Source: Malacoraja senta (taxonomy: Eukaryota). Taken from it: a stretch of 64,000 bases of DNA. The notes beneath the pieces were generated by a model. That model was not told the DNA's origin. It saw nothing but the letters and a program-made list of their open reading frames with translations, and did no database searches. Made by a program: the position numbers and the translations under genes. Of the stretch, positions 3,601-48,600 are shown piece by piece. The stretch spans positions 25,236,001 to 25,300,000 of the forward strand of contig CM075988.1 of the NCBI GenBank assembly GCA_038087875.1, given 5' to 3'. The first letter of the stretch is position 1. Every line of letters begins with the position of its first letter.

Positions 3601-6600
3601 GGGGAAGCAGCTGTTCCTGAACCTGGATGTTGCAGATTTCAGGCTCATAGAAACATAGAAACATAGAAATTAGGTGCAGGAGTAGGCCATTCGGCCCTTC
3701 GAGCCTGCACCGCCATTCAATATGATCATGGCTGATCATCCAACTCAGTATCCCGTACCTGCCTTCTCTCCATACCCTCTGATCCCTTTAGCCACAAGGG
3801 CCACATCTAACTCCCTCTTAAATATAGCCAATGAACTGGCCTCGACTACCCTCTGTGGCAGAGAGTTCCAGAGATTCACCACTCTCTGTGTGAAAAAAGT
3901 TCTTCTCATCTCATCCTGGCGGGGAGATCTGCAAAGGCTACTGGGGAGACTTTAAACTAGAATGGTTGGGGGGAGGGACTCAAATAGAGAATGCTATTAG
4001 ACAGTGTGTGAGGCAGGAGGCAGAGAAGGAAAGCGCTCAGACCCAACATGTAGGGGGGAAAGAAGAAAACAATAATAAACGGAGAATAAGAGGTGGTGGG
4101 GTTCTTAAATGGGTGAGCAGAGAAACAGAGGGGTGTAAAATGCGGGCGGAAGCAATAGGTAGCAAGGTGAAAGGTAAAAGTGGCAGGCAGACAAATCCAG
4201 GGCAAAAATCAAAAAGAGCCACTTTTCAACATAATTGTATAAGGGGTAAGAGCGTTGTAAAAACAAGCCTGAAGGCTTTGTGTCTCAATGCAAGGAGCAT
4301 TCGTAATAAGGTGGATGAGTTGAACGTGCAGATAGCAATTAATGATTATGATATAGTTGGGATCACGGAGACATGGCTCCAAGGTGACCAAGGCTGGGAG
4401 CTGAACATCCAGGGATATTCAATATTCAGGAGGGATAGAGAGAAAGGAAAAGGAGGTGGGGTAGCGTTGCTGGTTAGAGAGGAGATTAACGCAGTGGAAA
4501 GGAAGGACATTAGCTTGGAGGATGTGGAATCGGTATGGGTAGAGCTGCGAAACACTAAGGGGCAGAAAACGCTGGTGGGCGTTGTGTACAGGCCACCTAG
4601 CAGTAGTAGTGAAGTTGGGGATGGCATCAAACAGGAAATTAGAAATGCGTGCAACAAAGGCAAAACAGTTATAATGGGTGACTTCAATCTACATATAGAT
4701 TGGGTGAATCAAATTGGCAGGGGTGCTGAGGAAGAGGATTTCTTGGAATGTATGAGGGATAGTTATCTAAACCAACATGTAGAGGAACCAACGAGAGAGC
4801 AGGCTATTCTAGACTGGGTATTGAGTAATGAGGAAGGGTTAGTTAGCAGACTTGTTGTGCGTGCCCCCTTGGGCAAGAGTGATCATAATATGGTTGAGTT
4901 CTTCATTAGGATGGAGAGTGACATTGTTAATTCAGAAACAACGGTTCTGAACTTAAAGAAAGGTAACTTTGAGGGTATGAGACGTGAATTGGCCAAGATT
5001 GACTGGCAATTAGTTCTAAAAGGGTTGACGGTGGATATGCAATGGAAGGCATTTAAAGACTGCATGGATGAACTACAAAAATTGTTCATCCCAGTTTGGC
5101 AAAAGAATAAATCAAGGAAGGTAGTGCATCCGTGGATAACAAGGGAAATCAGGGATAGTATCAAAACAAAAGATGAAGCGTACAAATTAGCCAGAAAAAG
5201 CAGCATACCAGAGGACTGGGAGAAATTCAGAGACCAGCAGAGGAGGACAAAGGGCTTAATTAGGAAAGGGAAAATAGATTATGAAAGGAAACTGGCAGGG
5301 AACATAAAAACTGACTGCAAAAGTTTTTATAGATATGTGAAGAGAAAGAGATTAGTTAAATCAAATGTAGGTCCCTTGCAGTCAGAAACAGGTGAATTGA
5401 TCATGGGGAACAAGGATATGGCAGACCAATTGAATAACTACTTTGGTTCCGTCTTCACTAAGGAAGACATAAATAATCTGCCGGAAATAGCAGGGGGCCG
5501 CGGGTCAAAGGAGATGGAGGAACTGAGTGAAATCCAGGTTAGTCGGGAAGTGGTGTTGGGTAAATTGAATGGATTAAAGGCCGATAAATCACCAGGGCCA
5601 GATAGGCTGCATCCCAGAGTACTTAAGGAAGTAGCTCCAGAAATAGTGGATGCATTAGTGATAATTTTTCAAAACTCTTTAGATTCTGGAGTAGTTCCTG
5701 AGGATTGGAGGGTAGCAAACGTAACCCCACTTTTTAAGAAGGGAGGGAGAGAGAAAACGGGGAATTACAGACCAGTTAGTCTAACATCGGTAGTGGGGAA
5801 ACTGCTAGAGTCAGTTATTAAAGATGGGATAGCAGCACATTTGGAAAGTGGTGAAATCATTGGACAAAGTCAGCATGGATTTACGAAAGGTAAATCGTGT
5901 CTGACGAATCTTATAGAATTTTTCGTGGATGTAACTAGTCGAGTGGATAGGGGAGAACCAGTGGATGTGTTGTATCTGGACTTTCAGAAGGCTTTCGACA
6001 AGGTACCACATAAGAGATTAGGATACAAACTTAAATCACACGGTATTGGGGGTTCAGTATTGATGTGGATAGAGAACTGGCTGGCAAACAGGAAGCAAAG
6101 AGTAGGAGTAAACGGGTCCTTTTCACAATGGCAGGCAGTGACTAGTGGGGTACCGCAAGGCTCAGTGCTGGGACCCCAGCTATTTACAATTTATATTAAT
6201 GATCTGGACGAGGGAATTGAAAGCAACATCTCCAAGTTTGCGGATGACACTAAGCTGGGGGGCAGTGTTAGCTGTGAGGAGGATGCTAGGAGACTGCAAG
6301 GTGACTTGGATAGGCTGGGTGAGTGGGCAAATGTTTGGCAGATGCAGTATAATGTGGATAAATGTGAGGTTATCCACTTTGGTAGCAAAAACGGGAAGGC
6401 AGACTATTATCTAAATGGTGGCCGATTAGGAAATGGGGAGATGCAGCGAGACCTGGGTGTCATGGTGCACCAGTCATTGAAAGTAGGCATGCAGGTGCAG
6501 CAGGCAGTGAAGAAAGCGAATGGTATGTTGGCCTTCATAGCAAGAGGATTTGAGTATAGGAGCAGCGAGGTTCTACTGCAGTTGTACAGGGTCTTGGTGA

Positions 6601-9600
6601 GACCACACCTGGAGTATTGCGTACAGTTTTGGTCTCCAAATCTGAGGAAGGACATTATAGCCATAGAGGGAGTGCAGAGAAGGTTCACCAGACTGATTCC
6701 TGGGATGTCAGGACTTTCATATGAAGAAAGACTGGATAGACTTGGCTTATACTCGCTAGAATTTAGGAGATTGAGAGGGGATCTTATAGAAACGTACAAG
6801 ATTCTTATGGGGTTGGACAGGCTAGATGCAGGAAGATTGTTCCCGATGTTGGGGAAGTCCAGGACAAGGGGTCACAGCTTAAGGATAAGGGGGAAATCCT
6901 TTAAGACCGAGATGAGGAAAAACTTTTTCACACAGAGAGTGGTGAATCTCTGGAACTCTCTGCCACAGAGGGTAGTTGAGGCCAGTTCATTGGCTATATT
7001 TAAGAGGGAATTAGATGTGGCCCTTGTGGCTAAAGGGATCAGGGGGTATGGAGAGAAGGCAGGTACGGGATACTGAGTTGGATGATCAGCCATGATCGTA
7101 TTGAATGGCGGTGCAGGCTCGAAGGGCCGAATGGCCTACTCCTGCACCTATTTTCTATGTATCTATGTATCTATGTATCTCGGTTTTAAAGGATTTCCCC
7201 CTTATCCTTAAGCTGTGACCCCTTGTCCTGGACTTCCCCAACATCGGGAGCAATCTTCCTGCATCTAGCCTGTCCAACCCCTTAAGAATTTTGTAAGTTT
7301 CTATAAGATCCCCTCTCAATCTCCTAAATTCTAGAGAGTATAAACCAAGTCTATCCAGTCTTTCTTCATAAGACAGTCCTGACATCCCAGGAATCAGTCT
7401 GGTGAACCTTCTCTGCACTCCCTCTATGGCAATAATGTCCTTCCTCAGATTTGGAGACCAAAACTGTACGCAATACTCCAGGTGTGGTCTCACCAAGACC
7501 CTGTACAACTGAAGGCTCCTGTACCTTCTACCCGATGGCAGCAGAGAGATGAGTGCGTGGCCAGGATGGTGTGGGTCCTTGATGATGCTGGCAGCCTTTG
7601 TGAGGCAGCAACTGCGATAGATCCCCTCAATGGTAGGGAGGTGATGGCTTGGGTTATAATGCTGCGTTCAGCAGAATCTGATATGTGAACTGTCCAATGC
7701 ACCAGCATGGTTCAGCAAATATTTTTAACGGTTTTTTAAACAACAGCAGCTGAAAAGCAATATTCTGGAAAATCATAGCCCTTGATGTCGGAAAAGCAAT
7801 TGCCAATAATGGCACCAACTAAAACAAATGTACAAACTTTATTATAAAATACATGCGTGCACATTTATTGGGGAATGGTTCTTGGTGCAATATCTACGCA
7901 TGTGCAAAATTCACAGGCATTAATGTGGCATTAACTCCAAACTTTTTTCAACGAGCCCCAGCTATGGTAAATTTAGGATTTTCTCTGATCAAAATTAGCA
8001 GCGCAATATTTATGAATGGAATACATTTCTACATTACATTTACTGATGGTGGCAGGCACTTTCAACTCCAAGCTAGCACAAGAAAGAGGCACAAAAGGAA
8101 CCCCCAATATCTTTCAACATAAATGATCTCCAATGAAGTGAAGATCTAAGTAATGTTGTGTTGGACAATCTATCACAATTTGCATTTACCTGAAAAAGTT
8201 GGGCAACCTTCCTCGTCAGAACCATCCCGACAGTCTCTGTAAGAGTCACACACCCAATGGTTTACAATGCATCCCCCAGAATTACATCTGAAGTGGTTGG
8301 GGCCACAACTGGAAGGAACTTCAGTAGCATGTGGAACAGGATGCGAACCTAAAACAGACGTAAACACTCAAATTTTTGGGCTTCCGAATAAGAAATGAAT
8401 TTAACAAGTCCTCGATCAACATCATAGATACAAAGAACTAATCGTTGACTTCAGAACGGGAATGCTAGGTGATCACATGCCACTTTTCAATGGTGGGTCA
8501 GCTACAGAGAAAGTTAGCATCTTCAAATTCCTTGGTTTTCATATTGCCTGGCCTGGGCCCAGTGTATAGATGCAACCATGAAAACAACATACCAGTGCTT
8601 TCATTTTCTTAGAAGTTTAAAAAGATTCAGCATGTCACCAAATACTCTAACCACCTTCTACAGATGTAACATAGAATGGGTCCTGCTGGGTACATGGGTG
8701 CTTGGCATGGCAATTCCAAAGCACGGGAACTCAAGAGGCGATAGAGAGTGGTGGACTCAGCCGAGTTCATCATGGGCACAGCCCACCCCACCATTGAAAG
8801 CATCTAGATGAGGTTATGCCTAGAGAAGGCAGCATCTATCATCAAGGATCCCTACTCGGCTAACCTGACCAGCGGATAAACATCTGTAATAATCTCATCT
8901 TTCAGCACTTGGCCCATAGTCTTCCATGCGTATGTGTTTTAAGTGTTTGTCTTAAATGCTGTTAGTTGTCCGGCATAAGGAAGAAGATGGTAATTATCTT
9001 CTACCATCAGTTATGTTACATTTCATCCATAAATTCCATCAATAATAGTTTAAACTTAATTGTGTTTATACCAGGGCAGCCGTCTTCATCAGACCAGTCT
9101 CCACAGTCATTCTCTCCATCGCATTTCCACCATATCGGTACACATTTTCTATTCTGGCAACTGAACTGAAAGTATTTCATGCAAGAAGGTGCTTCGGTGG
9201 GATATCCTGCAAAGATTCAAAAACCATATGAATAACTGATCAGTTATTGTTAGCAACGTGATACCAAATGCAAGAAATAAACCTGATGCACACGGTGTAA
9301 AGTAATTTATTTCATGAGGAGGAGAAATTGCTAGCAATGTATTCCTTGTCTATCCCAAATTGAGAAGTCAGTTAATCCAACCCTATTGGTAGGCGCAAGG
9401 AACTGCAGACACTGGCTTACAAAAAAAGACACAAAGTGCTGAGGTAACTCATCAGGCCAGAAAAGCCAGCTATCTGTGTTCTCCAGAGATGCTAACTGAC
9501 CCTCTAAACCACTCCAGCACTGTCATTTTTACAACTTATTGGTAGTCTGGAGGTGCAGGGCAAGATGTAACAAATTTCCTTTCCCAAAGGACAAAGGCGA

Positions 9601-12600
9601 ACCAGGTCAGTTTTAAAACAAATCTGATATTTTAATGCTTGCTATTATTAGCTTTCTAAATAAAATCCTATTTAATTATCGGTCAAATTCCCCAGTGCTG
9701 TGGCAAGATTCAAAGTCATTTCTCTAGATCATTGGTTCAAAACCCTGACTGTGAGACCAGTAATTAAATGCTACGTTATCATGTCTGTTTTGCAAAAAAA
9801 TAAGAAAAATGTAAAAAAATTGCTTTTGATCAAAGCTAATTATAGATTTTATACTAACAACAACGGCCAGGGTGTAGATAAGACTTTGTATACTTACTAC
9901 AATTTGTTTCATCCGAGTAGTCGCCACAGTCATCCACCCCATCGCACTTCCATTCCATGCTAATGCACACTCCATTCCAGCATTTGAAACTGAAGGGCTC
10001 ACAGGTTCGATTGAACTCCTCTGTCCCGCCTACAAATACAAGCATCAATAGGATTCGATCGTAGATTATTATCAATTCAGATAAATGAATAATTATTATT
10101 TAAACTTTAAAGCAATAAATGCTGGAAGTGGACTAATGGGGCTGTCCCACTGTACGGGCTAATTCAAAAGTTCTCCCGAGTTTCCCCTGATTCGAACGCG
10201 GAGAATTACGGTAATAGCCACTCGTAGGTACTCGGGGCTCTCGTGGACATTTTTCAACATGTTGAAAAATCTTCACGAGTCTTCCCGAGCTTACCGCGTT
10301 TCCCGAGTACCTGCCGTTAGCGTTACGAGCCGCTAAGAGACGTCCCGAGCTCCGACGTACCCGCAACGTACATTCTACGTGCTTACCACGAGCTTGATTT
10401 TTTTTTTTTTAAACTCAGATTTTTTTTTTAGCTCTTGAATTAGCTCGTACAGTGGGACAGCCCCATAAGTATTGTTGCAGATCTCAGGAAGTTTTTTAAA
10501 TAACGTTGGTCGCTTGCACTTTGGTCAAATAAAGAATCCCACCTGAAGCATTAACTAATTAACTTAACTGTAACATAACATCCCAACTTCTATGTGTAGG
10601 AAAGAACTGCAGAGGCTGGTTTAAATCGAAGGTAGACACAAAATGCTGGAGTAACTCAGCGGGACAGGCAGTATCTTTGAAGAGAAGGAATGGGTGACGT
10701 TTCGGGTCAAGACCCTTCTTCAGTCCCAACTTCTATACTCAATACCTTAACTGATGAAGGCCAATGTAAATAAAGCCTTCTTGACCACCCTACCTACTTG
10801 TGATGCCACTCTCAAGGAACTATGTACCTGTCCTCTAGATCCTCAGGGCCCTGCCATTCACTGTGAAGACCCTGCCCTCGTCTGACTTCCCAAAATACAA
10901 CAATTGCCTGCATTAAACTCCATTAACCATTCCACATGCCACTGGCCAAACGGATCAAAATCCTGCTGTAATTGTTGAAAACCATCTTCACTATCTACAA
11001 TACCACCCACTTTCGTCTCCTCTGCAAACTTACTAATCATGCCTTCTAGATTCTCATCCAAATCATTGATATAAACCACAAACAGCAATGGGCCAGCACC
11101 GATCCCTGAGGCACACCACTAGTCACAGGCCTCCAGTCCGGAAAAAACCTTCTACCTTCACCGTTTGCTTATTTGTATGAAGCCAATTCTCTATCCAGTC
11201 AGTTATATCTCCCTGGATCTCAAGCGATCTAACCTTCCAGAGAAGCCTACTATGTAGAATCTTATCAAATTCCTCGTTGATGTCCTTATGAACAACGTCT
11301 GTGGCTTTTCCCCCCATCAAACTTTTTGGCTACTCCTTCAAAAAACTCAACCAGAATTATAAGACACAATCTCCCACGTACAAAACCAAGTTTACTAATC
11401 AACCTGTCTATCCAATTCCATATATATCTATCTCACAGAACTCTCTCCATTAACTTGAAGACTGGAGTAACTCAGCAGGGCAGGCAACATCTCTAGAGAG
11501 AAGGAATAGGAGACGTTTTAGGTCGAGACCCTTCTTCAGAAGAAGTCTGAAGAAGGGTCTCAACCCGAAATGTCACCCATTCCTTCCCTCCAGAGATCCT
11601 GCCTGTCCCACTGAGTTATTCCAGCATTTTGTGTCTATCTTTGGTTGTTCCTTCCTATACCTCTCCATTAACGTTCCGACCACAGATGTTAGGCTCACTG
11701 GTCTATAGTTCCTAGGCTTTTCCTTGCAGCCCTACATTAAAAAAAGGTACAAAATTAGCCACCTTCCAGTCTTTTGGCACCTCATTTGTGTCTAATTATT
11801 TATATATCTCTGCCCGGGAGATTTATCGACCTTTATTTTATGGAGAGCCAAGTTTCCATGCGATGGTCAGTAATTCAGAATCGCCATGTCCACTCTACTC
11901 CAGGGCCTTGTGTTGATGAACTAAACTCACAAATGTTGATCAATCCTGAATAACAGGCCCATCACAGATATTGATAGAAATTTCAAATCTCCCAAGAAGC
12001 CTGCCAGCCAATATGTTGCATGTTTCTAGCTAAACACCAATAGGATCGGGTAGTTCTGGCAAGATAAACATTAAGCTTTCCAATCTAGTAAAGGACACAC
12101 TTCTATCTCAGTCAGCTGCTTTCATTTGACATAAGGAAAAACTAACGAATAAGGTATTGCTTTCTCTGTTTAAAATTTGGATTAGAAACACAACATTGTC
12201 TCTAAGGGAAGAGGATATAATGAATAACAGATAAACTGCTGGTGATTTTTCAGTCTTTATCTAACGGGGAGAGTAAGTGGATTTGTACATGTCATCGCTG
12301 ATGTCAAAACCCCACCAGCTAATTTATTTTTGTATCTTTTTTCTGTTTTCCAGCTATGGATTGGTTTCAACTCCAATAGTTACATTCACTGTTGAACAAC
12401 TGAGTCACATTTGGATTGAACTCGTGATTCAGTATTTTTTTTTCCTGAGAAATGCTGCAAACAGGAGAACAAAAGAACATTTATGTAATCTGAGATTTTC
12501 TATGCATTCTTCAAATTCCTAACACCAGTCGGTATTTTACCAATTATCTTTGTTATTCTGGGACATGCTTGGTTTGAATTTAATGTTTCTCATGCATACA

Positions 12601-15600
12601 AGCATAACTGTAGATTACAGTCAGTTGTGAAAATAACTTTGGATGGGACATTACTTGCTCTTTTAGTATGTGTGGATACATCCTACTTCAGCAGACTCAA
12701 CAAAATAAAGTATAAGGAGGTGGAAAAAGTTTCACAAAGCAAAGTTTTAAAATGGTTATGAAATGTTCTCAGTGAACAGAACTATCGGCTGATATAAAGC
12801 CAAATGAAATCAGTATATATGAGAATTGATGCCCAATGTGTTAATTACACTCATCTCAGCCAGGATAGCGTGCAGGGCTCTGTGAAGGATTTAAACGCTA
12901 ACAACGGTACAGTTACTTTGTTAGAATTCTTGCTCCTGCTGACTGCTCAATTGACCCATGCAGACTAGTTAATGATCTATCTTGCATGTAACAATATCCA
13001 AAGTTATGGAAACCGATTGCCACCTGGTTGCAATACCTATATGTAGAATGGCCACAAGGAGTACAATGAGGAACAATTTTCTTCCCCAAAATGGTCATCC
13101 AATTTGACAACGTGGGAGAACATAAATTCAATCAGCAAATCATGGTCTACAGATGTTGCCCTATATGGTTTTAATATGATAGAGAATACTGAAGAAAACA
13201 TACTGCAATACGCATGATTTGGATCTTCATCTGAACCATCATCACACTGTCGGGTTCCATCACAAACCATCTCTTTCGGCAGGCACTGACGTCCATTCTT
13301 ACAGGCGAACTCAAAATACCGAGAGCATAATGGGTCTGGCAAAATTAATAAAAAAGGAACCATGGTAACATTCAGGTTTAATATTTAAACACAGCAGCAA
13401 CTCTCACTTCTACAGAGCTTACATGAAAATCATCTCAAGCCATTTGAAAATGCAGGAAAATCTTATTATTCATGTCTGGGAAAGTGGGAACTGCATTACT
13501 TTAGGTTGGAACATCGAATGTGCATTCCATGAATTTTACATTGTGCATTTATAACAGATTATATTGAAAAGTAGGAAGGAAAAATAACTACAGTGCAGTC
13601 ACCTGAATCTTGGGAATTCAGCAACAAAGTATTGGGAAGTAAGGAGTGCAAGAATCTAACTACGTAAAATGTAAAAGAATCCCACATACAAATCAAAGTA
13701 GAACCTTAAATTCCCTTGTCCATTTATTAACTATGATAATAGAGAAAGATTTTTCAATAATTTCTACTTCTGCATAAATAATCAATTTTATTTTAACTCA
13801 TCTAAAATGTTAATATACAATCATGTTATACAGTATATTATGTGAGTTTTTAATACACCAATGTGCTATGCATTGCTATTCCAATCTCAATGTTACAGAC
13901 CAGCCAAACTGAATTATGTATGTATAATTATGGAGCTGTGGAATTGTACAGCATGGGAAGAGGCCATTCTGCCCATCTGGTTCTGACTGACCAGTGGTTC
14001 TTTCGTATTGATCTCATTGCCCAGCACTTAGTCTCTAGGCTTCCTTGCCTAAGCAATTCAATTGCCATTCTAGACACTTCACATTGAAAGTAGACAGATG
14101 CAGTCATTGTTTTAAAAAACGTAAAAGTACTCACTGCAGTTTTGCTCATCTAATCCATCTGAACAGTCTGTGACACCATTGCAACGTTCAGACATTCCAA
14201 TACATGTACCATTTTTACATTTAAATCCATTGCAACCCGTCTTCTCTGCATGATAGCATATGATTGAGAAGAAAATACATTAAGACATTTCGGAAACAAA
14301 AGAGCATGTGTAACTTCTATTATATGTACTAATTCGCCAACACTATTCTGATATTATGTTGACTTTTACAAATAGTTACAAAACTAAGCTAGTAATTTCT
14401 TAATGTGCCTGTTAATAGTAATGAGACATAATTGAAAAATGAAAATAGATGTGAAAAACGAAACAAAAATCATTTCTGCACACATTGAGATCTTCATAAT
14501 TCAGATTCCTATTTCCTTCGCTCCATAGATGCTGCTGCACCCACTAAGTTTCTCCAGCACTTTTGTCTACCTTCATAATTCAGATAGATTGTTTCATTTG
14601 TCATAATACTGAACAGCGGGGCAAAACATAGACTCAGAACTTTGGCCCACAATTTTGTGCTGAATGTGATACCAAGTTAAACTAATCTCTTCTGCCCAAT
14701 TCGACCCAACCAATATTATATAAAGCTGCAATATGATTTCCTGACTGTTGTACTCATTGGCTCAAGAAATGAAGGCAAACATACTAGTTGTATTCTTTGC
14801 CATTACTTGTATTGCTACTTTAAGGGAGCTGTGGACTTGGACCCCACAACCTCTCTGTACTCCAATGCTGTTAAGCATCTTGCCAATATCTGTATACTCT
14901 CCCCTTACCTGTGACCTCCCAAAGTGCATTACCTCACACTTGCCCGTATTAAACGCCAGCTGCCGTTTCTCCACCCTTATCTGTAACTAGTTTACATTAA
15001 CTATATCCCTTGACAGCCTCTTCACTGTCTACTACTACACCAATGTGTTGACGTCTGCAATCTTGCTAACCAACCCATCTACATTTTTGTCCAAGCAGTT
15101 TCCATATTTTATGTAATAAACAGAGGTTCCTCCATTAAACCTGTGGAAAACCATTGGTCACAAACCTCCAGCCAGATTAACACCCTTCCATCACTATTGT
15201 CTGCTATTGGTAAACCAGTTCTGAATCCAAACTATCAAGTCACAGTGGATCCCACACATCTTAATCTTCTGGACACTAAAAGCTGGAATAACTGAGCGGG
15301 ACAGACAACCTCTCTGGAGAGAAGGAATAGGTGACGTTTCGGAAGAACGGTCTCGACCCGAAATGTCACCCATTCCTTCTCTCCAAAGAGGTTGCCTGTC
15401 CCGCTGAGTTACTCCAGCTTTTTGTGTCTATCTTCGGTTTAAACCAGCATCTACTGTTCCTTCCTACACTCTTAATCTTCTGGGTCAGCCTACCATAAGG
15501 GACTTTTACTAAAGTCCATGCAGACACCATCCACCACTCTCCCTTCACCTTTGTCACCTCGTTAAAAAACTCCATCTAGTTTGCAAGATGTGATCTAAAG

Positions 15601-18600
15601 CCATTCTACCTGTTCCCCAATTATCCCATACTCTTCCAAGTGCGAGTAAATCCTATCCCAAAGAACCCTGTCCAGTAGCTTCCTTACCACTGACATGAGG
15701 ATCAGGGGTCTGTAAATTCCTGGATTATCTCTAGTTCCTTTCTTAAACAAAGGAACAACATTTAACAGTTGGTTAAATTAACTGTATGAAATGTTAATAT
15801 CAGTTTAAGCCATTTATCATTAGAGCGAGTTCTCAAACAACTCCAAGATCATCACACGGCCAAAGAGACTAAAATTCATCTCCATCATTTGCAAGGCCAA
15901 TAAATCACAACTATATATCTATTAAGATTATTCTCATAAATTAGACTGAGTGAGAAATATTCAAAATTATTTGCTTTCTTCTGTTAAACTGTAATTTATC
16001 CTATTAAATAAGTAAAAACCATGTTGACATTTTGTGTTTTGTAAGTTTAAACCATTTGGATTGTTATTTCCTGTTTACCTCCTCTTCCACCTGCACTCAT
16101 AAATACATCTATATACAATACACAGGTAGACAGAGACATTCAGAACCTGCTTTTGATTCAAACATAAAAGACTATTACCTGGTCTGAACTTTTGACACTA
16201 CTAAAATATCTCAGTTAAATATTATCAAATTCCAGACTGTACTGCTAAGACACAAAACGACACAGACATCCTACAGGATTCTTACCACAGAGAGTAACTT
16301 CTTCATCACTTTCATCGAAACAATCGTCATCTCCATCACACAACCACTCACGCTGGATGCAGTTACCATTATGGCATGTAAAGTAGCGAGGGTCACAGCT
16401 TTTCTTAGTGGCTAAAGAAAATATTTGTGTTGGTGGATGTTCCAAAAAATCATCAATATAATTATACACACTTCCAGAGATAACAATGCATTTCTGCTCT
16501 GCTACATATTACAGGGAAGGTGCAATTTTGACAAACTTCATTCTTCACATAGAAGGCAGTGGTTTTCAATGAAATGAATAGCTATGTCTTAAGTGTCAAA
16601 TGGAGCAGATAATTTACAGTGCTACATAAATTGAATTTGTTACTTTTGAAAGTGTCATGTTGAAAACATTCAAATGTGAAATTTCATCAAGCGACATGAG
16701 ATGGATTAGCTCCCAATTTTCAATAAATTGCAGAGTTTTCTCAAAGCAGGGTCACAGCATCGTAGAATATAGATACGGGCCATTCAGTCCAACTTGCCTT
16801 AGCCAACCAGTGAATATCTCTGTTTACACTATATCCCAGCACCTGGTGCATAGCCTTCTATGCCCAAGTGATTTAAGTGCTCATCTAGACACTCCTAACA
16901 TGCTATCAGCAAACCACCTTCCACCTCTCTCTCAAGCAGTACACTCCAGGTACTTGGCACTCTCTGGATGAAGGAGGTTCCCCTCAGATTCCCTTTAAAT
17001 CACTTCAAATTTACCTTAATCCTGCCTGCGATTTTCTGTAACCCCTCTTAGCCTTTCTAATTTCCCTTTTAAGTAGCTCCCTACATTTCTTATATTCCAA
17101 ACATGCCTCGCTCGCCATTATTCCCTTATCCATACACATGCTTCTTTTTTATTTTTTAATCCAACCCTCAATACCCCTTGACATCCAAAATCTCACACGG
17201 ATTCTGTGGTCTTGTACATACTGGTTCTCATTGTTACATAAGTGTAAAGATACCCAATTGAAAATGAAATATATTTCCTATGCTCCAGCCAATTCTTAAA
17301 TAACCAAATCTATTTGCCAAAATGAAACAAAATTTAAAATTATCAAATTTAATAACCATAACTTTACTGCATTTATCTTTCAAAAGTATTATAATCTATT
17401 TCTGTGTCCTGGCTCTCCTGCTTCATTGTGGAAGCTGGAGCTGTTCTGAAACGAATATTAACCAAATGAATGACCAATGGACTGGAAATGAACTGTGGTA
17501 TTTTGAAAAGAAATACAGTACAATGCTTACTTTTAAACCCAATTTGAACATTTTCCAAATTGAGCCGAGTGAATATTACATTACTCTGCAAGAAGACAAT
17601 TTAGATAATCAGGAATAAATGAAGTTGAAGCAAGTTGACACAAGTACGTTGTTACTTACAGGTGCAGTTTGCTTCATCTGACCAGTCTCGGCAGTCATTG
17701 TCCCCATCACATATCCATGACTTGCGGATGCACAAGCCATTGGCACAAGTAAACTCATCACTGGTACAGGTATTAAATGCTGTTGAGGTTCAGAGAAACA
17801 ATTATATACACAGAAGGTTGAATTTATAGGAAGGAACTGCAGATGCTGGTTTAAACCGAAGATAGACACAAAAACCTGAAGCAACTCAGGCAAAAACCTG
17901 AGGCAGCATCTTTGGAGAGAAGGAATAGGTGATGTTTCAGGTTGAGACCCTTCTTCAGACCAGTTCAGACCAGTCTGAAGAAGGGTCTCGACCCAAAATG
18001 TCATCCATTCCTTCTCTCCAGAGATGCTGACTGTCCCGCTGAGTTACTCCAGCTTTTTGTGTCTATCTTCGACTGAATTAATATATCTGCACACTTATTA
18101 TTTTACTTTAAAAAAAGCCACAAGATATTTCTCAACTCAAATGGATTGATGGCAATGTAACCCAGTGCAGTTATTTAACCTTATATTAATAAATATTTTA
18201 TATCAGGTGAATACACTGACAAATCTAAATGCTGGATTTGGTAATTGGCTTTACTTCATGAATAGAATGAAACCCAATTGTTTAGAGCTAATAAATTATT
18301 GTTCACATGAGCAGCCAAGGGACAACATTGCCTCATCACAAAATTAGACATCTTATTTGGTTATCCCTAAACTTTAAGAAAAAATAAATTCTTGCAGCTT
18401 GCAGTTAAAAGAACTTTAATTCATCACTTGCAGGTTGAGTCCAAGAAATGGGGAAAACTATTTTGCAACAGAATAAATAGTCAGTCATTGACTGGCTATT
18501 TATAATAATAATGAAGACATCCTTATTGAAAAGGTGTATTCATAGTCTATTTTAACATTTCTAATTTTTGACTGGGAGCCAATGCTAATGGTTACAAGGA

Positions 18601-36600: not shown

Positions 36601-39600
36601 GTTATTTGCTCATTTAGTGGTACAGAATTACAGTGTTTTATGCTAAAAATTATGGGGAACAATGATCGCGTTGTTCAATGAACAGGTCACATCATAGACC
36701 TACCCAATGCTGATTTTGTGTCGATCTGGATTATTAGCCAACTGTGCGACTTTATTGCAAACGATCCAAAGAGAGTGAAGATGGTACTTTTTTCTCCTGG
36801 CTCAGTAATTAGTCCATATATGGTAATATTATCTTTTGCGAAAGTAATGGCCTTCCATGTCTCTCCCTCATTGGTACTGTACCTTTTTATCAAAAGGAAT
36901 TTATGAATATGTAATATTGCAGCAGTTTTACTCCAAGCAGCTGAATAACATCTCTTTCTTGAATCAAACTTACACAACATTGAAATTCATATATAATTTT
37001 TAAAAAGTATTAAAACAAAATACAATGGATAATGGATATATGAAAAGATATGAAAAATGCTGAAAGTATTCAACATGTTGAAAGCATCTACAGAGAAATA
37101 AATTTCAGATGAGCAATATACTCCATTTCACCATCTTCTGATGTTACCCGACTTTTCAAAAATGAGAAAAGAAAAGCTAAGAGCCTGTTTCGTCGATTTG
37201 CCGGCACCCGTCATAGTCGCAGCAGGTTGCCGAAAATTTTCAACATGTTGAAAATCCAGCGGCAACCAGAAAAAAGTACGACTCTTTGGGCGACTACTCA
37301 CCACCAAACAGGCGTCACACCGCGATGTCATTGTTAACATTTCAACATGGCTAGTGGGGTACCGCAAGGCTCGGTGTGGGGACCGCAGCTATTTACAACA
37401 TATTTTAATGATTTAGATGAAGGGATTACAAGTAACATTAGCAAATTTGCAGATGACACAAAGCTGGGTGGCAGTGTGAACTGTGAGGATGCTACGAGAA
37501 TGTAGGGTGACTTGGACAGGTTCGGTGAGTGGGCAGATGCAGTTTAATGTGGATAAATGTGAGGTCATCCACTTTGGTAACAAAAACAGGAAGGAAGATT
37601 ATTATCTAAATGGTGTCAAGTTGGGAAAATGGGAAGTACAACGGGATCTGGGGGTCCTTGTTCATCAGTAAGCATGTAGGTACAGCAGGCAGTGAAGAAA
37701 GTGATCATGGCTGATCATCCACAGGCCTTCATAACAAGAGGAGTTGAGTATAGGAGCAAAGAGGTCCTTCTGCAGTTGTACAGGGCCCTAGTGAGACCAC
37801 ACCTGGAGTATTGTGAGCAGTTTTGGTCTCCAAATTTGAGGAAGGACATTCTTGCTATTGAGGGAGTGCAACGTAGGTTCACGAGGTTAATTCCCAGGAT
37901 GGCGGAACTGTCATATGTTGAAAGAAAGGAACGGCTGTGCTTGTGTACCCTGGAATTTAGAAGGATGAGAGGGTATCTTATTGAAACATATACATTTATT
38001 AAGGGTTTGGACAAGCTAGAGGCAGGAAACAAGTTCCTGATGTTGGGGGAGTCCAGAAACAGGGGGCCACAGTTTAAGAATAAGGGGTAAGCCATTTAGA
38101 TCAGAGATGAGGAAACACTTTTTCACACAGAGAGTTGTGAGTCTGTGGAATTCTCTGCCTCAGAGGGCGATGGAGGCCAGTTTTCGGGATTCTTTCAAGA
38201 GAGAGCTAGATAGGGCTCTTGAAGATAACGGAGTCAGGGGATATGGGGCGAAGGCAGGAACGGGGTACTGATTGTGGATGATCAGCCATGATCACATTGA
38301 ATGGCGGTACTGGCTTGAAGGGCCGAATGGCCTACTCCTGCACCTATTGTCTATTGTAAAGTTTAGAAAGTACAGTTAATTCTCTAGTTTACTCACTTTA
38401 CTTGATTAGTCGGTGAAAACCAAGGAACTGCCAGCAGGATGCCTCCATGATCAGCCCAAGAATAGAAGTAGGAACCTTTGAGGGCCTAAAAAAGAGGCAC
38501 AGGAGTGTTCAGAATATAATTAGTTCCACTGTTACACCTTTTCATTGTTTTGCTACTTTCCCTTCAAATGTTTTATGCTGTACGCTAAACATGCTGGAGA
38601 ACTCAACCCAGATCTCTGCCACCTCCCTACTCTCTGCATAAAAAGAATCAAACAAACTTGTCACTCCTCTTGAGAACATACAGAAAATCAACAAACCTAA
38701 TTATTTTACATGCTTTATTTGAGTTTCTACATTTTTGTTACGATATAGTAAATTTATATTGATATGTTGGTGAATAAATGCCGGAGCCCAAGTTGTCAAA
38801 GGACGTCAAATCTCTTATATACGAGACAACATTAAAAGAAAAACTGTATAAAGAGACTCCGAGATATGCACCTGTACAAGTGTCAGGGGTTATGGGGAGA
38901 AGGCAGGAGGATGGGGTTAGGAGGGAGAGATAGGTCAGCCATTATTGAATGGCGGAGTCGACTTGATGGGCCGAATGGCCTAATTCTACTCCTATTCATT
39001 ATGACTTATGACATATCGACCAATATAATTTGCCTGGTTTTGCCCCACCCTTTTCCCTCACCTATATTTACCAGCCTTCTTCCCTATACTTCAGTTTGAA
39101 GAATGGTGCCATCCGGAAACGCCGTCTGTCCGTTGTCCTCCACAGATGCTGCCTTACCTGCTGCCTTCCTCCAGCACTTTGTTTTTTTTTGCTCATTATC
39201 TACCATCGTCCACATTACCAACACAGTAACTAGTTTACACAAAACGAGTTTCCCCAAACAACAATGACATAATGACTGTATCATCTTCTGTGTTTGTGGT
39301 TAAGGACTCCAATAAAAACTATTTGAGCAGTACACTGTTCACCAGATAAGATTTTTCAGAACAAGAGTCGCGCAAACCTGCAATCTGGACCAAATTCTAT
39401 TCATGAATACCATCCGGATCTTTTGCTGACTGGAATTTTGCAATTGAATACAGTACAATGTCATCTTGATACAGCACCAGATAATGTGGCAGACAGCTAA
39501 TGGTTAGAATTTGTAATAGAATTACGTTTCTTGACATGACAGTAAGCAATATTATATTATATGGTGCGACCAATAATCCTTCAACGTTCAGCAAATCCCA

Positions 39601-42600: not shown

Positions 42601-45600
42601 TCCAAAAATAACAAATTAAAGATTTCTTCTCACTATTTTTCAGGGTGGGGGCAGAATATTGACATCCAGATATTAGAGAACCCCAGCCCATGAGAAAATG
42701 TTGATGATACAGTATAAATGCTCAGGTAGAGTTTTGTGTGAAGTCAAAATATTGGGGGTGGGCAAGACAGAATACAGTTATCATTTCTGTGGTCATATTG
42801 AAAACATTATTATTATTACAATGTGATTAGGGCATGGTTAAATTCAAATAATTAATTTTCTTCAAGGCAAATGGATTTCTCCTTAAGGCAAGAAACAGAA
42901 AACATATTTCAGGATTGCCTTCACATAATTGAAAGTTTGTCGTGCAACTTTTTATAATAGCAAGGTGAAACACAGCATTCACTTTTAGGACCAAATTAAA
43001 TGCTACCAGAGAAAGGAAAACAAATCCCAGATCATGAACAGATAGAAATCTTCGACATCACATACAGTAGATGATCTATTTTCAAGTTGGTGATTGTAAA
43101 CATCAAGAACACATTTATCTTAAAACTACTTGGACAACATTGGTAAGGAAAGGAAATGCTGCTAAATAACTCGCTCTCGTGCTAACCATTCCTCTGCTGC
43201 TTCACATATAGTACACAAATACATTTCCAGGAATTTTACCCATTTGTTGACAAGGGTTGCAAGAATACTGTAGATGAACCATCTCAAAGTGAACTAGCAT
43301 AACAGTGGTCCATTTGATTGAACTCAGAGACATCCGCAATTCTGAAACTATAGATACAAAGACGGTGTTCGATGTCTTGTCCAATCTTTTCCAAACTAAA
43401 TACCAGCTTGTCAAATAAAAATAATGTTTCAATATGGATCACGATCAAAAGTATTTTAAAAAGTCTACATACGAGCTATTTGGGCAACTTCCAATATTGG
43501 TAGGAAATTAGAGATATCATTTAATGTTTTTAAAAGTTTAAAATGAGAAAGGGGAGCAAAGAATTGCAGAATTCAGACACAACTAGAAGCAGTAACATGT
43601 TGATCTTATCACAGATTTAGTCGCCACTTTTATCTTGAAGTCTAGGTTTCTGAGCCAAGTAATAATGGCATCTTGAGTGGTAGCACAGTTAACAGTCACA
43701 TGCCCTGGAAAAGAATCGTGACAAGAACAATTGCATGTAATCTCCTTTCAAGCAAGCGATCGCAAAGGAAGGAGACTTCCTTTATGGAGAACACCCCTGT
43801 AACGGGCCTTAAGTAAGGAATGGGTAACCGATAAGGTCTAATGTCTGGGAATTAAAACGTCATATTGTGAACAAAGATAAAAGGGCATAATTTCAGCAAT
43901 AAAACAGCTTTATTTTAATTTAATCCAAGCTCATGTAGAGCACCTGGATATATGGAACAAGAAGATATTTTCACTGAGAGACTTTAAATAACAGAACACT
44001 TTAATTTATTTCAGGAATCACAATGTTCATTTACCTACCTCACCAAAGTTGAACTTCCTGCACCTCCTGGACTATAATACAGTATATTTTCCAGAGAAAG
44101 AGAAAACTTCAGCCCGTCTGCTTCTGAGATGTAGAGATTGGTCACGTTATTGCTTAGACGGACACAGACAAACACCTGGTCTTCTGAAGCATCAGCCACA
44201 TAGTACTCCTGAAGAATGCATGAATAAAACAAGTTAGTATAATTACACACCAAATTTAAATCACATTCATTTTTTTGTACTGAAAAGTGCATTCTCATAA
44301 TCTTTACTCAAAATGGAAACAATTCTGATAGACAGGCCGTAATACACACTAGCAGTTACTCTGCTGGGTCTGATCGGTAGAATGCCTGGCTCAGTTTCTT
44401 CAAGACATCACCAATCCCTTGCATCTACCAAACCCCAGCTGAAAAAGTGGAAAAGTGGAAATAATAAAGAAAGAGAGAAAAGTAAAACTGAATATTCAGG
44501 GGTATACGTCCTATCGAAAAGACAGACAGATGGTCAAAGGGGGTGGGGTAGCTCTGTTGGTGAGGAATGAAATTCAGTCCCTTGCGAGGGGTGGCATAGA
44601 ATCAGGAGACGTAGAGTCAGTATGGATAGAACTGAGGAATTATGAGGGTGAAAAGACCCCAATGGGAGTTATCTACAGGCCCCCAAACAGTTGCCTGGAT
44701 ATAGGGTGCAAGTTGAATCAAGAGATAAAATTGGCATGTCGCAAAGGTAATTCTACGGTGGTTATGGAAGATTTCAACATGCAGGTAGACCGTGAAAATC
44801 AGGTTGGCACTGGACCCCAAGAAAGGGAGTTTGTGGAGTGCCTCCGAGATGGATTCTTAGAGCAGCTTGTACTGGAGCCTACCAGGAAGAGGGCAATTCT
44901 GGATTTAGTGTTGCGTAATGAACCGGATTTGATAAGGGAACTCAAGGTAAAGGAGCCATTAGGAGGTAGTGACCATAATATGATAAGTTTTAATCTACAA
45001 TTTGAGAGGGAGAAGGGTAATTCGGAGGTGTCAGTATTACAGTTGAACAAAGGGGACTATGGAGCCATGAGGGAGGAGCTGGCCAAAGTTGACTGGAAAG
45101 ATACCCTAGCAGGGATGGCAGTGGAACAACAATAGCAGGTATTTCTGGGAATAATACAGAAGGTGCAGGAGCAGTTCATTCCAAATAGGAAGAAAGATTC
45201 TAAGGTAGACAAAAATGCTGGAGAAACTCAGCGGGTGCAGCAGCATCTATGGAGCGAAGGAAATATTAGAAAGATTCTAAGGGGAGTAAGAGGCAACCGT
45301 GACTGACAAGGGAAGTCAAGGACAGTTTTAAAAAGTACAACATGGCAAAGATGAGCGGGAAGCCAGAGGATTGGGAAACTTTTAAAGAACAGAAGATAAT
45401 TAAAAAGATGAGGGAGAAAAGATGAGGTACGAAGGTAAGCTAGCCAAGAATATAAAGGAGGATAGTAAAAGCTTCTTTAGGTATGTGAAGAGGGAAAAAA
45501 TAGTTAAGACAAATGTGGGTCCCTTGACGACAGAAACAGGTGAATTTATTATGGGAAACAAGGAAATGGCAGAGGAGTTTAACAGGTACTTTGGATCCGT

Positions 45601-48600
45601 CTTCACTAAGGAAGACACAAACAATCTCTCATATGTACTAGTGGCCAGAGGACCTAGGGTGACAGAGCAACTGAGGGAAATTCTCATTAGGCAGGAAATG
45701 GTTTTGGGTAGACTGATGGGAATGAAGGCTGATAAATCCCCAGGGCCTGATGGTCTACATCCCAGGGTACTTAAGGAGGTGGCTTCAGAAATCGTGGATG
45801 CATCGGTGATCATTTTCCATTGTTCTATAGATTCAGGATCAGTTCCTGTGGATTGGAGGGTAGCTAATGTTATCCCACTTTTTAAGAAAGGAAGGAGAGA
45901 GAAAGGGAATTATAGACCAGTTAGCCTGACATCGGTGATGGGGAAGATGCTGGAGTCAATTATAAAAGGTGAAATGGCAGCACATTTGGATAGCAGTAAC
46001 AGTATCGGTCCGAGTCAGCATGTATTTACGAAGGGGAAATCATGCTTGACTAATCTTCTGGAATTTTTTGAGGATGTAACTAGAAAGATGGACAAGGGAG
46101 CCTTTCAGAAAGCCTTTGATAAGGTCCCACACAGGAGATTAGTGGGCAAAATTAGAGCACATGGTATTGGGGGTAGGGTACTGACATGGATAGAAAATTG
46201 GTTGGCAGACAGGAAACAAAGAGTAGGGATTAACGGGTCCCTTTCACAATGATAGGCAGTGATTAGTGGGGTACCGCAAGGCTCGGTGCTGGGACCGCAG
46301 CTATTCACAATATATAATAATGATTTAGATGAAGGGATTAAAAGTAACATTAGCAAATTTGCAGATGACACAAAGCTAGGTGGCAGTGTGAACTGTGAGG
46401 AGGATGCTCTGAGGAATCAGGGTGACTTGCACAGGATGGGTGAGTGGGCAGATGCAGTGTAATGTGGATAAATGTGAGGTTATCCACTTTGGTGCCAAGA
46501 ACAGGAAGGCAGATTATTATCTGAATAGTGTCAAGTTAAGAAAAGGAGAAGTACAACGAGATATGGGGGTCCTTGTTCTTCAGTCACTGAAAGTAAGCAT
46601 GCAGGTACAGCAGGCAGTGAAGAAAGCTAATGGCATGTTGGTCTTCATAACATGAGGAGTTGAGTATAGGAGCAAAGAGGTCCTTCTGCAGTTGTACATG
46701 GTCCGAGTGAGACCACACCTGGAGTATTGTGTGCAGTTTTGGTCTCCAAATTTGAGGAAGGACATTCTTGCTATTGAGGGAGTGCAACGTAGGTTCACGA
46801 GGTTAATTCCCAGGATGGCGGGACTGTCATATGTTGAAAGAAAGGAGCGACTGGGCTTGTATACGCTAGAATTTAGAAGGGTGAGAGGGGATCTTATTGA
46901 AACATATAAGGTTATTAAGGGATTGGACACACTAGAGGCAGGAAACATGTTCCCAGTATTGGGAGAGTCCAGAACCAGGGGCCACAGTTTAAGAATAAGG
47001 GGTAGGCCATTTAGAACAGAGTTGAGGAAATAATTTTTCACCCAGAGAGTTGTGAATATGTGGAATTCTCTGCCTCAGAAGGCAGTGGAGGCCAATTCTC
47101 TGGATGCTTTCAAAGAGAGTTAGATAGAGCCCTTAAAGATTTTCTTTTCTTTTTTCTTTTCTTTTTTCCTATCTTTTTTTGTATGGCTTTGTAAATATTT
47201 GATTAGTGTATAAATGTAAATAATTGGTGTACATATTGGTGTACATATAGCTGCTAAATTTGTATAAGATAATTATAAGCAGTTGAATAAGGGGTGGGAA
47301 TTAATAAGCTTTGGCTTCTTCCTGCTCCTTTTCGGACACATACGATTTCATTTATTTAGATATTGTTTATGACACTTTATAAATATTCTTGTTTTGTTTT
47401 TTTGTATGCTGTTTCACACTTGCTTTTTATTCTTTTATTCTGTTCGAAATAAAGAATAAAATAAAATAAATAATTTTATGGGGAGAAGGCAAGAACGGGG
47501 TACTGATTGTGGATGATCAGCCATGATCACAGTGAATGGCGGTCGGTGCTGGCTCGAAGGGCCGAATGGCCTACTCCTGCACCTATTGTCTATTGAAACC
47601 TTACAAGCACAATCTGGCTTAGTTGGACAGCATTTAATGCACCTCTAAATATTATCATTAGCATTCTGCTGAACATTGCAGTGAATAAAAAGTTGCTTAG
47701 ATTCACAGAACACTGCTGTAATCATAATATCAGATTCATAACCTTTTTTTCAGCAGATCAGCATCTAATCATATTTTTAGCAAAGCCTTGAGGTTTTTAG
47801 GCAACTGAATTTCCCTAATCTACTAAACTTTGAGAAAGGATTCAATACAAGAATTAAAAGTTGGGCTTTTAGTGTTCTTCCTATTCATGTACTCACCACT
47901 ACTCGATGTCTTGTGAGGAAATGAACACGTTTCATTGGTTTCCGATCATAAGAAACCCACAACTGCACCACAGATGGGTCACTGCTCCCCAAAAGATGCT
48001 ATCGGAAACAAAAACAAAATGTTTTCAAACCACAGCAAGGAGAAAAACATTTTTTCCTTTTTAAAGAGAAGACTACAACTGGAAAGGTGTGCAGCGAGTA
48101 CTGGAGTCATGACGACAGTATGTGAGGACACCTCAGTGGATCACACATATTCTCAGACTATTATTCCTTGCTTGGATATGCATTAAACAGAATCTTTGAG
48201 AATATACCTGCTGTTGGGGGCCATTATTTCTAATTCCCCCTCTGTTTCCTTTCCATCCAGTTGTGTGTCAGCGCCCTGTTATGTGACAGGCCAAGAGGAA
48301 TTGTTGCTCAAGTACTGTGCTCTAATTGACAGCAACTACATGTTTTGTATAGACACAAAAAGCTGAGTTACTCCAGCTTTTTGTGTAGATTTTCAGTTTT
48401 AAACCAGCATCTGCAGTTCCTTCTTGCACATGCTTTGTATATTTGCTCCAAGTGAGAATCACACCTCTGCATTTACCAATATCGACAGTAGAACATTCTA
48501 CAAACATGCAGAATGCCACATTGGAAGTTAACCCCAAAACAAAATGAAGCCGTCGAATTCTAAAGTGAGAAAAAACAAACTACTGGATGAACTCAGCAGG

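What the first reader, a model, noticed from the sequence alone, without database searches (positions are those of the whole stretch)
3913..4142. U_UUA_AAC slippery heptamer at the CR1 ORF1 stop leads by -1 shift into ORF2
Seen: ORF1 ends ACT TTA AAC TAG, placing T TTA AAC (3951-3957) in the correct X XXY YYZ phase directly before the stop. The -1 frame (TTT AAA CTA GAA TGG TTG GGG...) is the ORF2 frame. It stays open for 63 codons before the first ATG (4140) and on to 7076. A G-rich tract (GGTTGGGGGGAGGG) starts about 6 nt downstream, and GTTGGG (3965-70) could pair with CCCAAC (4042-47). Known: UUUAAAC is the coronavirus -1 frameshift heptamer, and such sites are usually followed 5-9 nt later by a stimulatory structure. 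Inference: this CR1 may make an ORF1-ORF2 fusion by programmed frameshifting, unlike the reinitiation used by L1.
Basis: partly seen in the sequence, partly recalled or inferred. Interest (0 to 1): 0.72.

Follow-up and report, generated by a model that had tools for sequence, protein, structure and literature searches.

The report
Conserved frameshift site in CR1 LINEs
This broken copy of a very common vertebrate jumping gene (a CR1 LINE) keeps a seven-letter slippery sequence, a stop codon and a G-rich patch that recur in relatives from sharks to crocodiles, so its copying enzyme is most likely made when ribosomes slip back one base, a mechanism inferred from sequence and not yet measured.

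Summary
Observation confirmed: T_TTA_AAC (3951-57) abuts the ORF1 stop, and the -1 frame is ORF2, open to 7076. The copy is 5'-truncated (15 ORF1 codons), so the signal matters for the family, not this copy. Conservation supports -1 frameshifting. The heptamer stood at 14 of 14 published CR1 consensus junctions found without selecting for it; across 20 rows (sharks, bowfin, coelacanth, frog, lizard, crocodilians) the stop varies. A distant locus (35% ORF1 identity) has it too, with no AUG before the endonuclease's invariant first motif. Of 96 esterase-ORF1 representatives, 59 end in tripeptides compatible with a perfect heptamer (background 3.9%), including swaps to G_GGA_AAC and A_AAA_AAC types. 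The proposed GTTGGG/CCCAAC helix is unsupported; what recurs is a G-run about 10 nt downstream, the arterivirus protein-stimulator spacing. Against: no shifting measured, 3 of 20 rows carry a UAAUG overlap, and several gapped consensus rows are not open. Not found in 10 literature searches; three key older CR1 papers were unavailable. This scan reported the same idea before on other DNA (e1-8041403). Frameshift 0.75; interest 0.74.

The parts
3913..7176 (+). 5'-truncated CR1 LINE copy with intact ORF2 frame, 3' UTR and short (TCTATGTA)n-type tail
   Evidence: Sequence; self-BLAST; Pfam EN and RT
3908..3912 (+). 5-bp ATCTC, repeated at 7177-7181: likely target-site duplication
   Evidence: Read
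3913..3960 (+). Last 15 codons and TAG stop of the esterase-type ORF1 ([15 protein letters not shown])
   Evidence: 14 of 15 identical to P0088 residues 220-234; P0088 matches Lipase_GDSL_2
3951..3957 (+). Slippery heptamer T_TTA_AAC in X_XXY_YYZ phase, directly before the ORF1 stop
   Evidence: same in L001 and in 20 consensus rows of PMC13343379
3958..3967 (+). ORF1 stop plus 7 nt: the 10-nt spacer
   Evidence: 10 nt in both the window and L001
3968..3977 (+). G-tract (G6-A-G3), candidate 3' stimulator; a two-tier G-quadruplex from 3964 is predicted here but not in L001
   Evidence: a run of 4 or more G starts within 14 nt of the heptamer in 16 of 20 consensus rows (read by eye)
3961..4268 (+). 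Purine-rich linker open only in the -1 frame; contains the first in-frame ATG (4140) and four upstream out-of-frame ATGs (3962, 3991, 4048, 4109)
4269..4886 (+). AP-type endonuclease domain (first motif [10 protein letters not shown]; Pfam match residues 118-312 counted from 3951)
5745..6389 (+). Reverse transcriptase domain (residues 599-813 counted from 3951); frame ends at 7076
3661..3912 (-). 3' end of an antisense copy of the same family, into which the element inserted
   Evidence: 96.4% identity over 252 nt
7177..7514 (-). Continuation of that antisense copy
   Evidence: 96.7% identity over 338 nt

Best explanation
In full-length members of this CR1 family, most ribosomes finish ORF1 at the stop after T_TTA_AAC and release the esterase protein. 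A minority slip back one base on the last two codons (UUA AAC re-pairing to UUU AAA) and continue through a flexible linker into the endonuclease and reverse transcriptase. The product is an ORF1p-ORF2p fusion that keeps all of ORF1p, like Gag-Pol. The pause is probably supplied by the stop codon waiting in the next position plus a G-tract about 10 nt downstream, not by a stem-loop or pseudoknot. SHOWN: the layout, the open -1 frame, conservation of heptamer and G-tract, absence of a usable AUG in L001. INFERRED: slippage itself, its rate, the stimulator, and the role of the fusion.
For: (1) DNA conservation: 14 of 14 CR1 consensus rows whose ORF1 end was fully visible in heptamer-independent look-ups carry TTTAAAC; 20 distinct junction rows in all, with TAG, TAA and TGA all used as the stop. 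(2) L001, 35% ORF1 identity: same heptamer and stop; its -1 frame opens 5 codons before the heptamer and runs 112 codons to the contig end; its first AUG is residue 44, after the start of the Pfam endonuclease match (residue 36) and the invariant NARS motif. (3) ORF1 proteins: 44 of 52 with a normal tail end in LN; the residue before L is one that cannot end in T in 0 of 45, against 29 of 45 one position earlier, and 1 of 48 among 50% representatives. (4) Swaps: 59 of 96 representatives end in a tripeptide compatible with a perfect heptamer, against 607 of 15734 background tripeptides; GN-enders have Q before G in 9 of 10; the ending tracks the stop over tails of 24-39 residues. (5) Two Hypanus gene models read from ORF1 through FKL into the endonuclease, so the -1 frame is open there with other linker lengths (P0003, P0173). 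(6) Young copies in two organisms show no indel at 4% or more in 3913-4900 and no stop among the 12 listed substitutions between heptamer and ATG; a minor variant deletes ATG 4140 by a net 93 or 96 nt. (7) U_UUA_AAC, G_GGA_AAC and A_AAA_AAC are named among the most shifty heptamers (PMC5009743).
Against: No frameshift product or rate was measured. No conserved RNA structure: z -1.1 in the window, -3.5 kcal/mol in L001. 3 of 20 consensus rows (ScyCan-1a, SquAca-17a, SquAca-6c) have a TAATG overlap with the ATG in the ORF2 frame. Read by eye, the -1 frame is open to the endonuclease in ScyCan-1a and to the cut in PriPec-7, but not in AllMis-1b, AllMis-6a, PogVit-2, HypSab-13 or SquAca-1; these rows appear to drop letters, but I could not show that for each. 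2 of the 14 rows lack a stop right after the heptamer. 37 of 96 representatives do not end compatibly, and P0182 (EELN) breaks the rule. After clustering at 70/60/55% identity the residue test alone is weak (p about 0.005/0.04/0.11, computed ignoring the one exception). The GN-enders lie in one clade (quick tree). One search hid 45 of 85 substitution rows, so invariance of 3951-3960 is not shown. The search profile included the LN tail, which favours LN-enders in the ranking.
Confidence: 0.75

Rival explanations
1. ORF2 is made by termination and reinitiation, as in human L1 or by SART1-type UAAUG coupling, starting at ATG 4140 here; heptamer and G-tract help reinitiation or are passengers.
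For: L1 ORF2p is described as made by termination/reinitiation (PMC7658363) and independently of the AUG (PMC5009743), so a missing AUG does not exclude it. SART1 uses UAAUG (PMC3894237). TAATG is present in 3 of 20 rows. ATG 4140 lies 43 codons before the first endonuclease motif.
Against: It does not predict a fixed -1 frame open right from the heptamer over linkers of very different length (about 30 codons in L001, 106 here), fixed TTA AAC codons, or swaps to other slippery heptamers. Four out-of-frame ATGs precede 4140. By eye, ATG 4140 aligns to GCA in SquAca_CR1-1 and has no counterpart in HypSab_CR1-13. L001 has no AUG before NARS.
Confidence: 0.14
2. The conserved feature is the protein end Leu-Asn-COOH of ORF1p; the heptamer is a by-product of codon choice and ORF2 starts by another route, such as a near-cognate codon.
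For: The terminal residues continue the last predicted helix (215-233). The protein data alone cannot fix codons.
Against: All DNA junctions seen use T TTA AAC, although TTA is 14 of 93 Leu codons and AAC 20 of 47 Asn codons in this ORF2. The ending follows the stop rather than the fold. The last four residues have mean pLDDT 53 against 91 for 221-230. The residue before the pair covaries with the identity of the repeated base.
Confidence: 0.06
3. The motif acts on RNA processing: a splice acceptor at CTAG, a weak polyadenylation or pause signal giving ORF1-only RNA, or polymerase slippage.
For: CTAG ends in AG and G-tracts bind splicing and 3'-end factors (recalled, from no call).
Against: TAA-T junctions (HypSab-6b, ScyCan-1a, SquAca-17a, -6c) lack the AG. 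None of these explains phase-locking to ORF1 codons or the GN and KN swaps. The heptamer has no run longer than three bases. No usable RNA reads were laid (one search used DNA-type runs).
Confidence: 0.05

Closest known systems
Coronavirus ORF1a/1b and retroviral gag-pol -1 frameshift signals
   Same: Same heptamer class (U_UUA_AAC is the IBV site; PMC5009743), downstream polymerase frame in -1, structural or accessory protein fused to the polymerase.
   Different: No stable or conserved stem-loop or pseudoknot was found. The 0-frame stop is the very next codon. The host element is a LINE.
Arterivirus (PRRSV) protein-stimulated -2/-1 frameshift
   Same: A short unstructured motif at a 10-nt spacer; efficient only at 9-11 nt (PMC4937337). 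The CR1 G-run follows a 10-nt spacer in the window, L001 and 6 of 20 consensus rows.
   Different: The motif is G-rich, not C-rich; no trans-acting protein is known; the spacer is shorter or the G-run absent in other, gapped rows.
G-quadruplex-stimulated -1 frameshifting (synthetic constructs)
   Same: G-tracts just downstream of the slip site; a two-tier quadruplex starting 6 nt after the heptamer is predicted here; tested optimum 6-8 nt (PMC3919603).
   Different: Those constructs had four G3 tracts. L001 gets no quadruplex from the same program. The 2016 review knew no natural use.
Dictyostelium TRE5-A and TRE3-A (APE-type LINEs)
   Same: A review states that both need a -1 frameshift for ORF2 (PMC5911963, figure legend).
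   Different: Different clade and ORF1 type; I saw only the statement, not the slip site or an assay.
Human L1 and SART1 ORF2 translation
   Same: Two ORFs on one RNA with low ORF2 output.
   Different: They make a separate ORF2p by reinitiation or UAAUG coupling; this junction has no overlapping stop-start and no conserved AUG.

Membership tests
Vertebrate CR1 LINE with esterase ORF1 | ORF2 with AP endonuclease and reverse transcriptase | tested here: met
   Exo_endo_phos and RVT_1 above their cut-offs
Vertebrate CR1 LINE with esterase ORF1 | SGNH esterase ORF1 upstream | tested here: met
   Only 15 codons remain; 14 of 15 match the end of P0088, which matches Lipase_GDSL_2
Vertebrate CR1 LINE with esterase ORF1 | Short repeat tail instead of poly(A), 5' truncation | tested here: met
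   Read from the sequence at 7150-7181 and 3908-3913
Vertebrate CR1 LINE with esterase ORF1 | Placement of the RT in the CR1 clade by phylogeny | not tested
   No RT tree was built; the CR1 label rests on similarity, by eye, to rows labelled CR1 in PMC13343379
Canonical -1 frameshift signal | X_XXY_YYZ heptamer in 0-frame phase | tested here: met
Canonical -1 frameshift signal | Downstream ORF open in -1 from the heptamer | tested here: met
   Window, L001, P0003, P0173; not confirmable in several gapped consensus rows
Canonical -1 frameshift signal | Stable stem-loop or pseudoknot 5-9 nt downstream | tested here: not met
   z -0.8 to -1.2; helix lost in wider context; L001 -3.5 kcal/mol; pseudoknots were not predicted
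Canonical -1 frameshift signal | Measured transframe product | not testable with these tools
   Needs a reporter, ribosome profiling or mass spectrometry
Protein-stimulated frameshift (arterivirus type) | Short conserved unstructured motif about 10 nt downstream | tested here: inconclusive
   Exactly 10 nt in window, L001 and 6 of 20 rows; 3-13 nt or absent in the others
Protein-stimulated frameshift (arterivirus type) | Trans-acting RNA-binding protein required | not testable with these tools
   No binding data
G-quadruplex-stimulated frameshift | Four G-tracts able to form a stable quadruplex | tested here: inconclusive
   Two-tier predicted in the window, none in L001
SART1-type stop-start coupling | UAAUG overlap | tested here: not met
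   The window has TAGAAT; TAATG is present in 3 of 20 related rows

The most novel reading that the evidence does not exclude
Esterase-ORF1 LINEs, the dominant retrotransposons of most vertebrates, make a Gag-Pol-like ORF1p-ORF2p fusion by a -1 shift whose stimulator is not an RNA stem but a G-tract at a fixed 10-nt distance, read by a host G-tract-binding protein or by ORF1p itself, or folded as a quadruplex, working with the adjacent stop codon. The device is older than jawed vertebrates and has swapped heptamers (U_UUA_AAC, G_GGA_AAC, A_AAA_AAC) in distant lineages. This would be a natural G-tract-stimulated frameshift, a host-tunable switch on retrotransposition, and a physical way to tether the enzyme to its own particle.
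Probability: 0.35. Interest if true: 0.88.

Novelty: new variant of a known kind. Interest (0 to 1): 0.74.

Why it matters
How LINE ORF2 is translated is called an open question (PMC3894237), and CR1-group elements are described as the dominant retrotransposon in most vertebrate species (PMC13343379 abstract). A frameshift would mean that the true CR1 enzyme begins with the whole ORF1 protein, so ORF2 starts annotated at the first AUG are wrong. It would add a very old, very abundant natural frameshift signal with an apparently non-structural stimulator, and it can be tested with one reporter construct.

Tried and rejected
No genome is held for the window, so sister copies could not be counted. 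The window's other CR1 fragments lack the junction. Scans of viral contigs with ORF2, ORF1 and the GN-ending alignment gave no CR1; genome contigs gave one weak bacterial match; metagenome contigs gave 1 locus from 122 pattern matches. Raw-read runs X21 and X22 laid 10 and 0 reads and say nothing. The supplement of PMC4316615 gave four hits, all inside ORF2 3' ends; its file 1 was not searched. A search for variant stop contexts was too unspecific to use. The GTTGGG/CCCAAC helix was rejected as the stimulator: context-dependent, and by eye absent from HypSab_CR1-13 and L001. Absence of stops among 12 linker substitutions is weak, since few random changes make a stop; 11 of 12 change the residue, so the linker sequence itself looks unconstrained. 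P0003 and P0173 show an open frame, not translation: they probably come from copies with a one-base indel. ORF2 N-termini from gene callers could not be used, as their start codons are unknown. The careful tree did not finish; a quick tree was used. A PDB search with L001's endonuclease start gave nothing significant.

Full report
WHAT IS THERE. The window holds a CR1-type LINE at 3913-7176 (+). It sits inside an antisense copy of the same family (3661-3912 and 7177-7514, 96-97% identical), with ATCTC on both sides. One frame is open from 3894 to 7076 and carries an AP endonuclease and a reverse transcriptase. The element is 5'-truncated: ORF1 is reduced to 15 codons, 14 of which match the end of esterase ORF1 P0088. 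The closest named relatives of that ORF1 type are from rays, skates and sharks, so the host is probably a cartilaginous fish (inference). This copy cannot use the signal; the question concerns the family.

THE OBSERVATION. All coordinates hold. The -1 frame has 0 stops in 106 codons, the other frames 10 each; the linker was open in 118 of 5000 shuffles. A heptamer precedes 31 of 6858 stop triplets in the window. Four out-of-frame ATGs lie before ATG 4140. The proposed helix is in the local minimum-energy fold, but the region is no more stable than shuffles (z -0.8 to -1.2 for three downstream windows), and the helix vanishes in a 388-nt fold.

DNA RELATIVES. The metagenome scan gave one locus, L001, at 35% ORF1 identity. 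It has CAT TTA AAC TAG and a G6 run after the same 10-nt spacer. Its -1 frame opens 5 codons before the heptamer and stays open for 112 codons; the first AUG is residue 44, after the start of the Pfam endonuclease match (36) and the invariant NARS. Its short linker is open in 1948 of 5000 shuffles, so openness alone is weak there; the frame and the missing AUG are the point. L001 has one stop early in ORF1 and no downstream structure (-3.5 kcal/mol).

PUBLISHED CONSENSUS ROWS. The supplement of PMC13343379 lists vertebrate CR1-group consensus sequences, cut at 400 letters as served, so only some junctions are visible; I read them by eye. A search for heptamer plus stop gave 23 places, 18 at ORF1 ends and 5 elsewhere: alligator, crocodile, bearded dragon (TGA), bullfrog, coelacanth, bowfin, elephant shark, sawfish, stingray, catshark, dogfish and one teleost row labelled Crack (species read from the row codes, recalled). 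Because that selects for the motif, I also used upstream and downstream anchors and three whole parts of 58: 14 of 14 CR1 rows with a fully visible ORF1 end had TTTAAAC, 12 of 14 with a stop directly after. Among the 20 distinct rows, 16 have a run of 4 or more G starting within 14 nt, 6 with a spacer of exactly 10 nt, and 3 have TAATG. The -1 frame is open to the endonuclease in ScyCan-1a and to the cut in PriPec-7, but not in AllMis-1b, AllMis-6a, PogVit-2, HypSab-13 or SquAca-1. These automated consensus rows seem to drop letters, so I count them neither way on frame. The uncut file could change these counts.

YOUNG COPIES. Contigs of runs X1 and X10 (28,988 and 15,973 laid) show no indel at 4% or more over 3913-4900. 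None of the 40 substitution rows shown falls in 3951-3960, but 45 were hidden. The 12 shown between heptamer and ATG make no stop; 11 change the residue. X10 has minor joints near 4087-4102 to 4195-4198 that net 93 or 96 nt and remove ATG 4140; they are probably one event, at depths of 14-172 against about 100,000 or more. One X10 contig skips the heptamer (3946-4067); 8 joints were hidden.

PROTEIN RELATIVES. Of 102 ORF1 hits, 57 had the catalytic-loop anchor and 52 a normal tail; 44 of 52 end in LN. T TTA AAC needs the preceding codon to end in T, which excludes E, K, Q, M and W: 0 of 45 there, 29 of 45 one position earlier. Among the best 150 representatives at 50% identity, 96 had an anchor and a tail of at most 45 residues; 64 end in N (background 4.9%): LN 48, GN 10, KN 2, SN 2, FN 1, EN 1. 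59 of 96 are compatible with a perfect heptamer, against 3.9% of other tripeptides. Before LN, residues with pyrimidine-ending codons only occur 20 times and purine-only once; before GN, purine-only 9 of 10. This is what G GGA AAC would give. Limits: relatives are not independent, the GN group is one clade of unnamed source, the profile included the LN tail, and no DNA was obtained for the swaps. LN-enders include named snake, turtle and swallow proteins. An AlphaFold model gives the last four residues pLDDT 53 against 91 just before, weak evidence against a structural role. P0003 and P0173 read from ORF1 through FKL into the endonuclease.

MECHANISM. Best reading (0.75): a -1 tandem slip on UUA AAC gives a minor ORF1p-linker-EN-RT fusion. 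The adjacent stop and the G-tract are the likely pause. Rivals: reinitiation (0.14), possibly real in TAATG families alongside shifting; protein-end constraint (0.06); RNA processing (0.05). It works like a viral gag-pol shift but fails the canonical test for a downstream structure, so I do not file it as a canonical signal. The 10-nt spacer equals the wild-type PRRSV spacer; quadruplex stimulators were best at 6-8 nt.

LITERATURE. Ten searches listed no paper on CR1 frameshifting. Seen: PMC5009743, passages, only the first 300,000 characters held; PMC3894237, parts 1-2 of 3; passages of PMC5911963, PMC3905857 ('frameshift' 0 times), PMC8557442, PMC4120745 (0 times), PMC4255032, PMC4937337, PMC3919603, PMC9004415, PMC7658363; PMC13343379, passages (52) and supplement rows; PMC4316615, supplement search only. 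Not held, nothing seen: Haas 1997, Kajikawa 1997 (id recalled), Kapitonov and Jurka 2003; they or Repbase entries may already remark on a frameshift. A -1 shift is asserted for Dictyostelium TRE5-A and TRE3-A. Earlier notes of this scan reached the same idea in another genome (e1-8041403); I wrote my reading before seeing them and do not count them as support.

VERDICT. A real, deeply conserved recoding-type signal; mechanism inferred, not measured. New variant of a known kind; interest 0.74.

Noticed in passing
window 44038-44208 (-): An exon of a sortilin-related receptor (SORL1-like) gene: full-length match to PDB chains at E 5e-29, Vps10 domain. Whether the CR1 at 3913 lies in one of its introns was not checked.
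   Followed up: partly
window 3958-4270: The linker looks like a mosaic: by eye 3937-4044 resembles HypSab_CR1-13, which then enters the endonuclease directly, and about 4113-4290 resembles SquAca_CR1-1. The frame is kept across the joins.
   Followed up: partly
proteins P0241, P0260, P0278, P0293, P0304, P0312, P0317: Seven esterase ORF1s of one clade share x-K-N at the same tail position, 10-12 codons before their stop, compatible with A_AAA_AAC in an overlapping layout. No DNA seen.
   Followed up: partly
proteins P0242, P0250, P0270, P0284, P0302, P0303: A separate clade with a DGLHP motif does not end in N; it may use another way to make ORF2 and would be a natural control.
   Followed up: no
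protein P0003: A Hypanus RefSeq model named 'hydroxyacid oxidase 2 isoform X1' is entirely CR1 ORF1 plus endonuclease; P0086 is a CR1-type ORF1 labelled Pseudomonas aeruginosa, probably contamination.
   Followed up: no
window 44488-47134 (+), 37347-38354 (+), 10729-11795 (-), 14708-15771 (-): Further decayed LINE fragments of more distant families, none reaching the ORF1 junction.
   Followed up: no
PMC13343379 supplement rows SquAca_CR1-18 and SquAca_CR1-3: TTTAAAC plus TAA or TAG and a short G-run also occurs in the 5' region upstream of ORF1 in two dogfish rows; unexplained.
   Followed up: no
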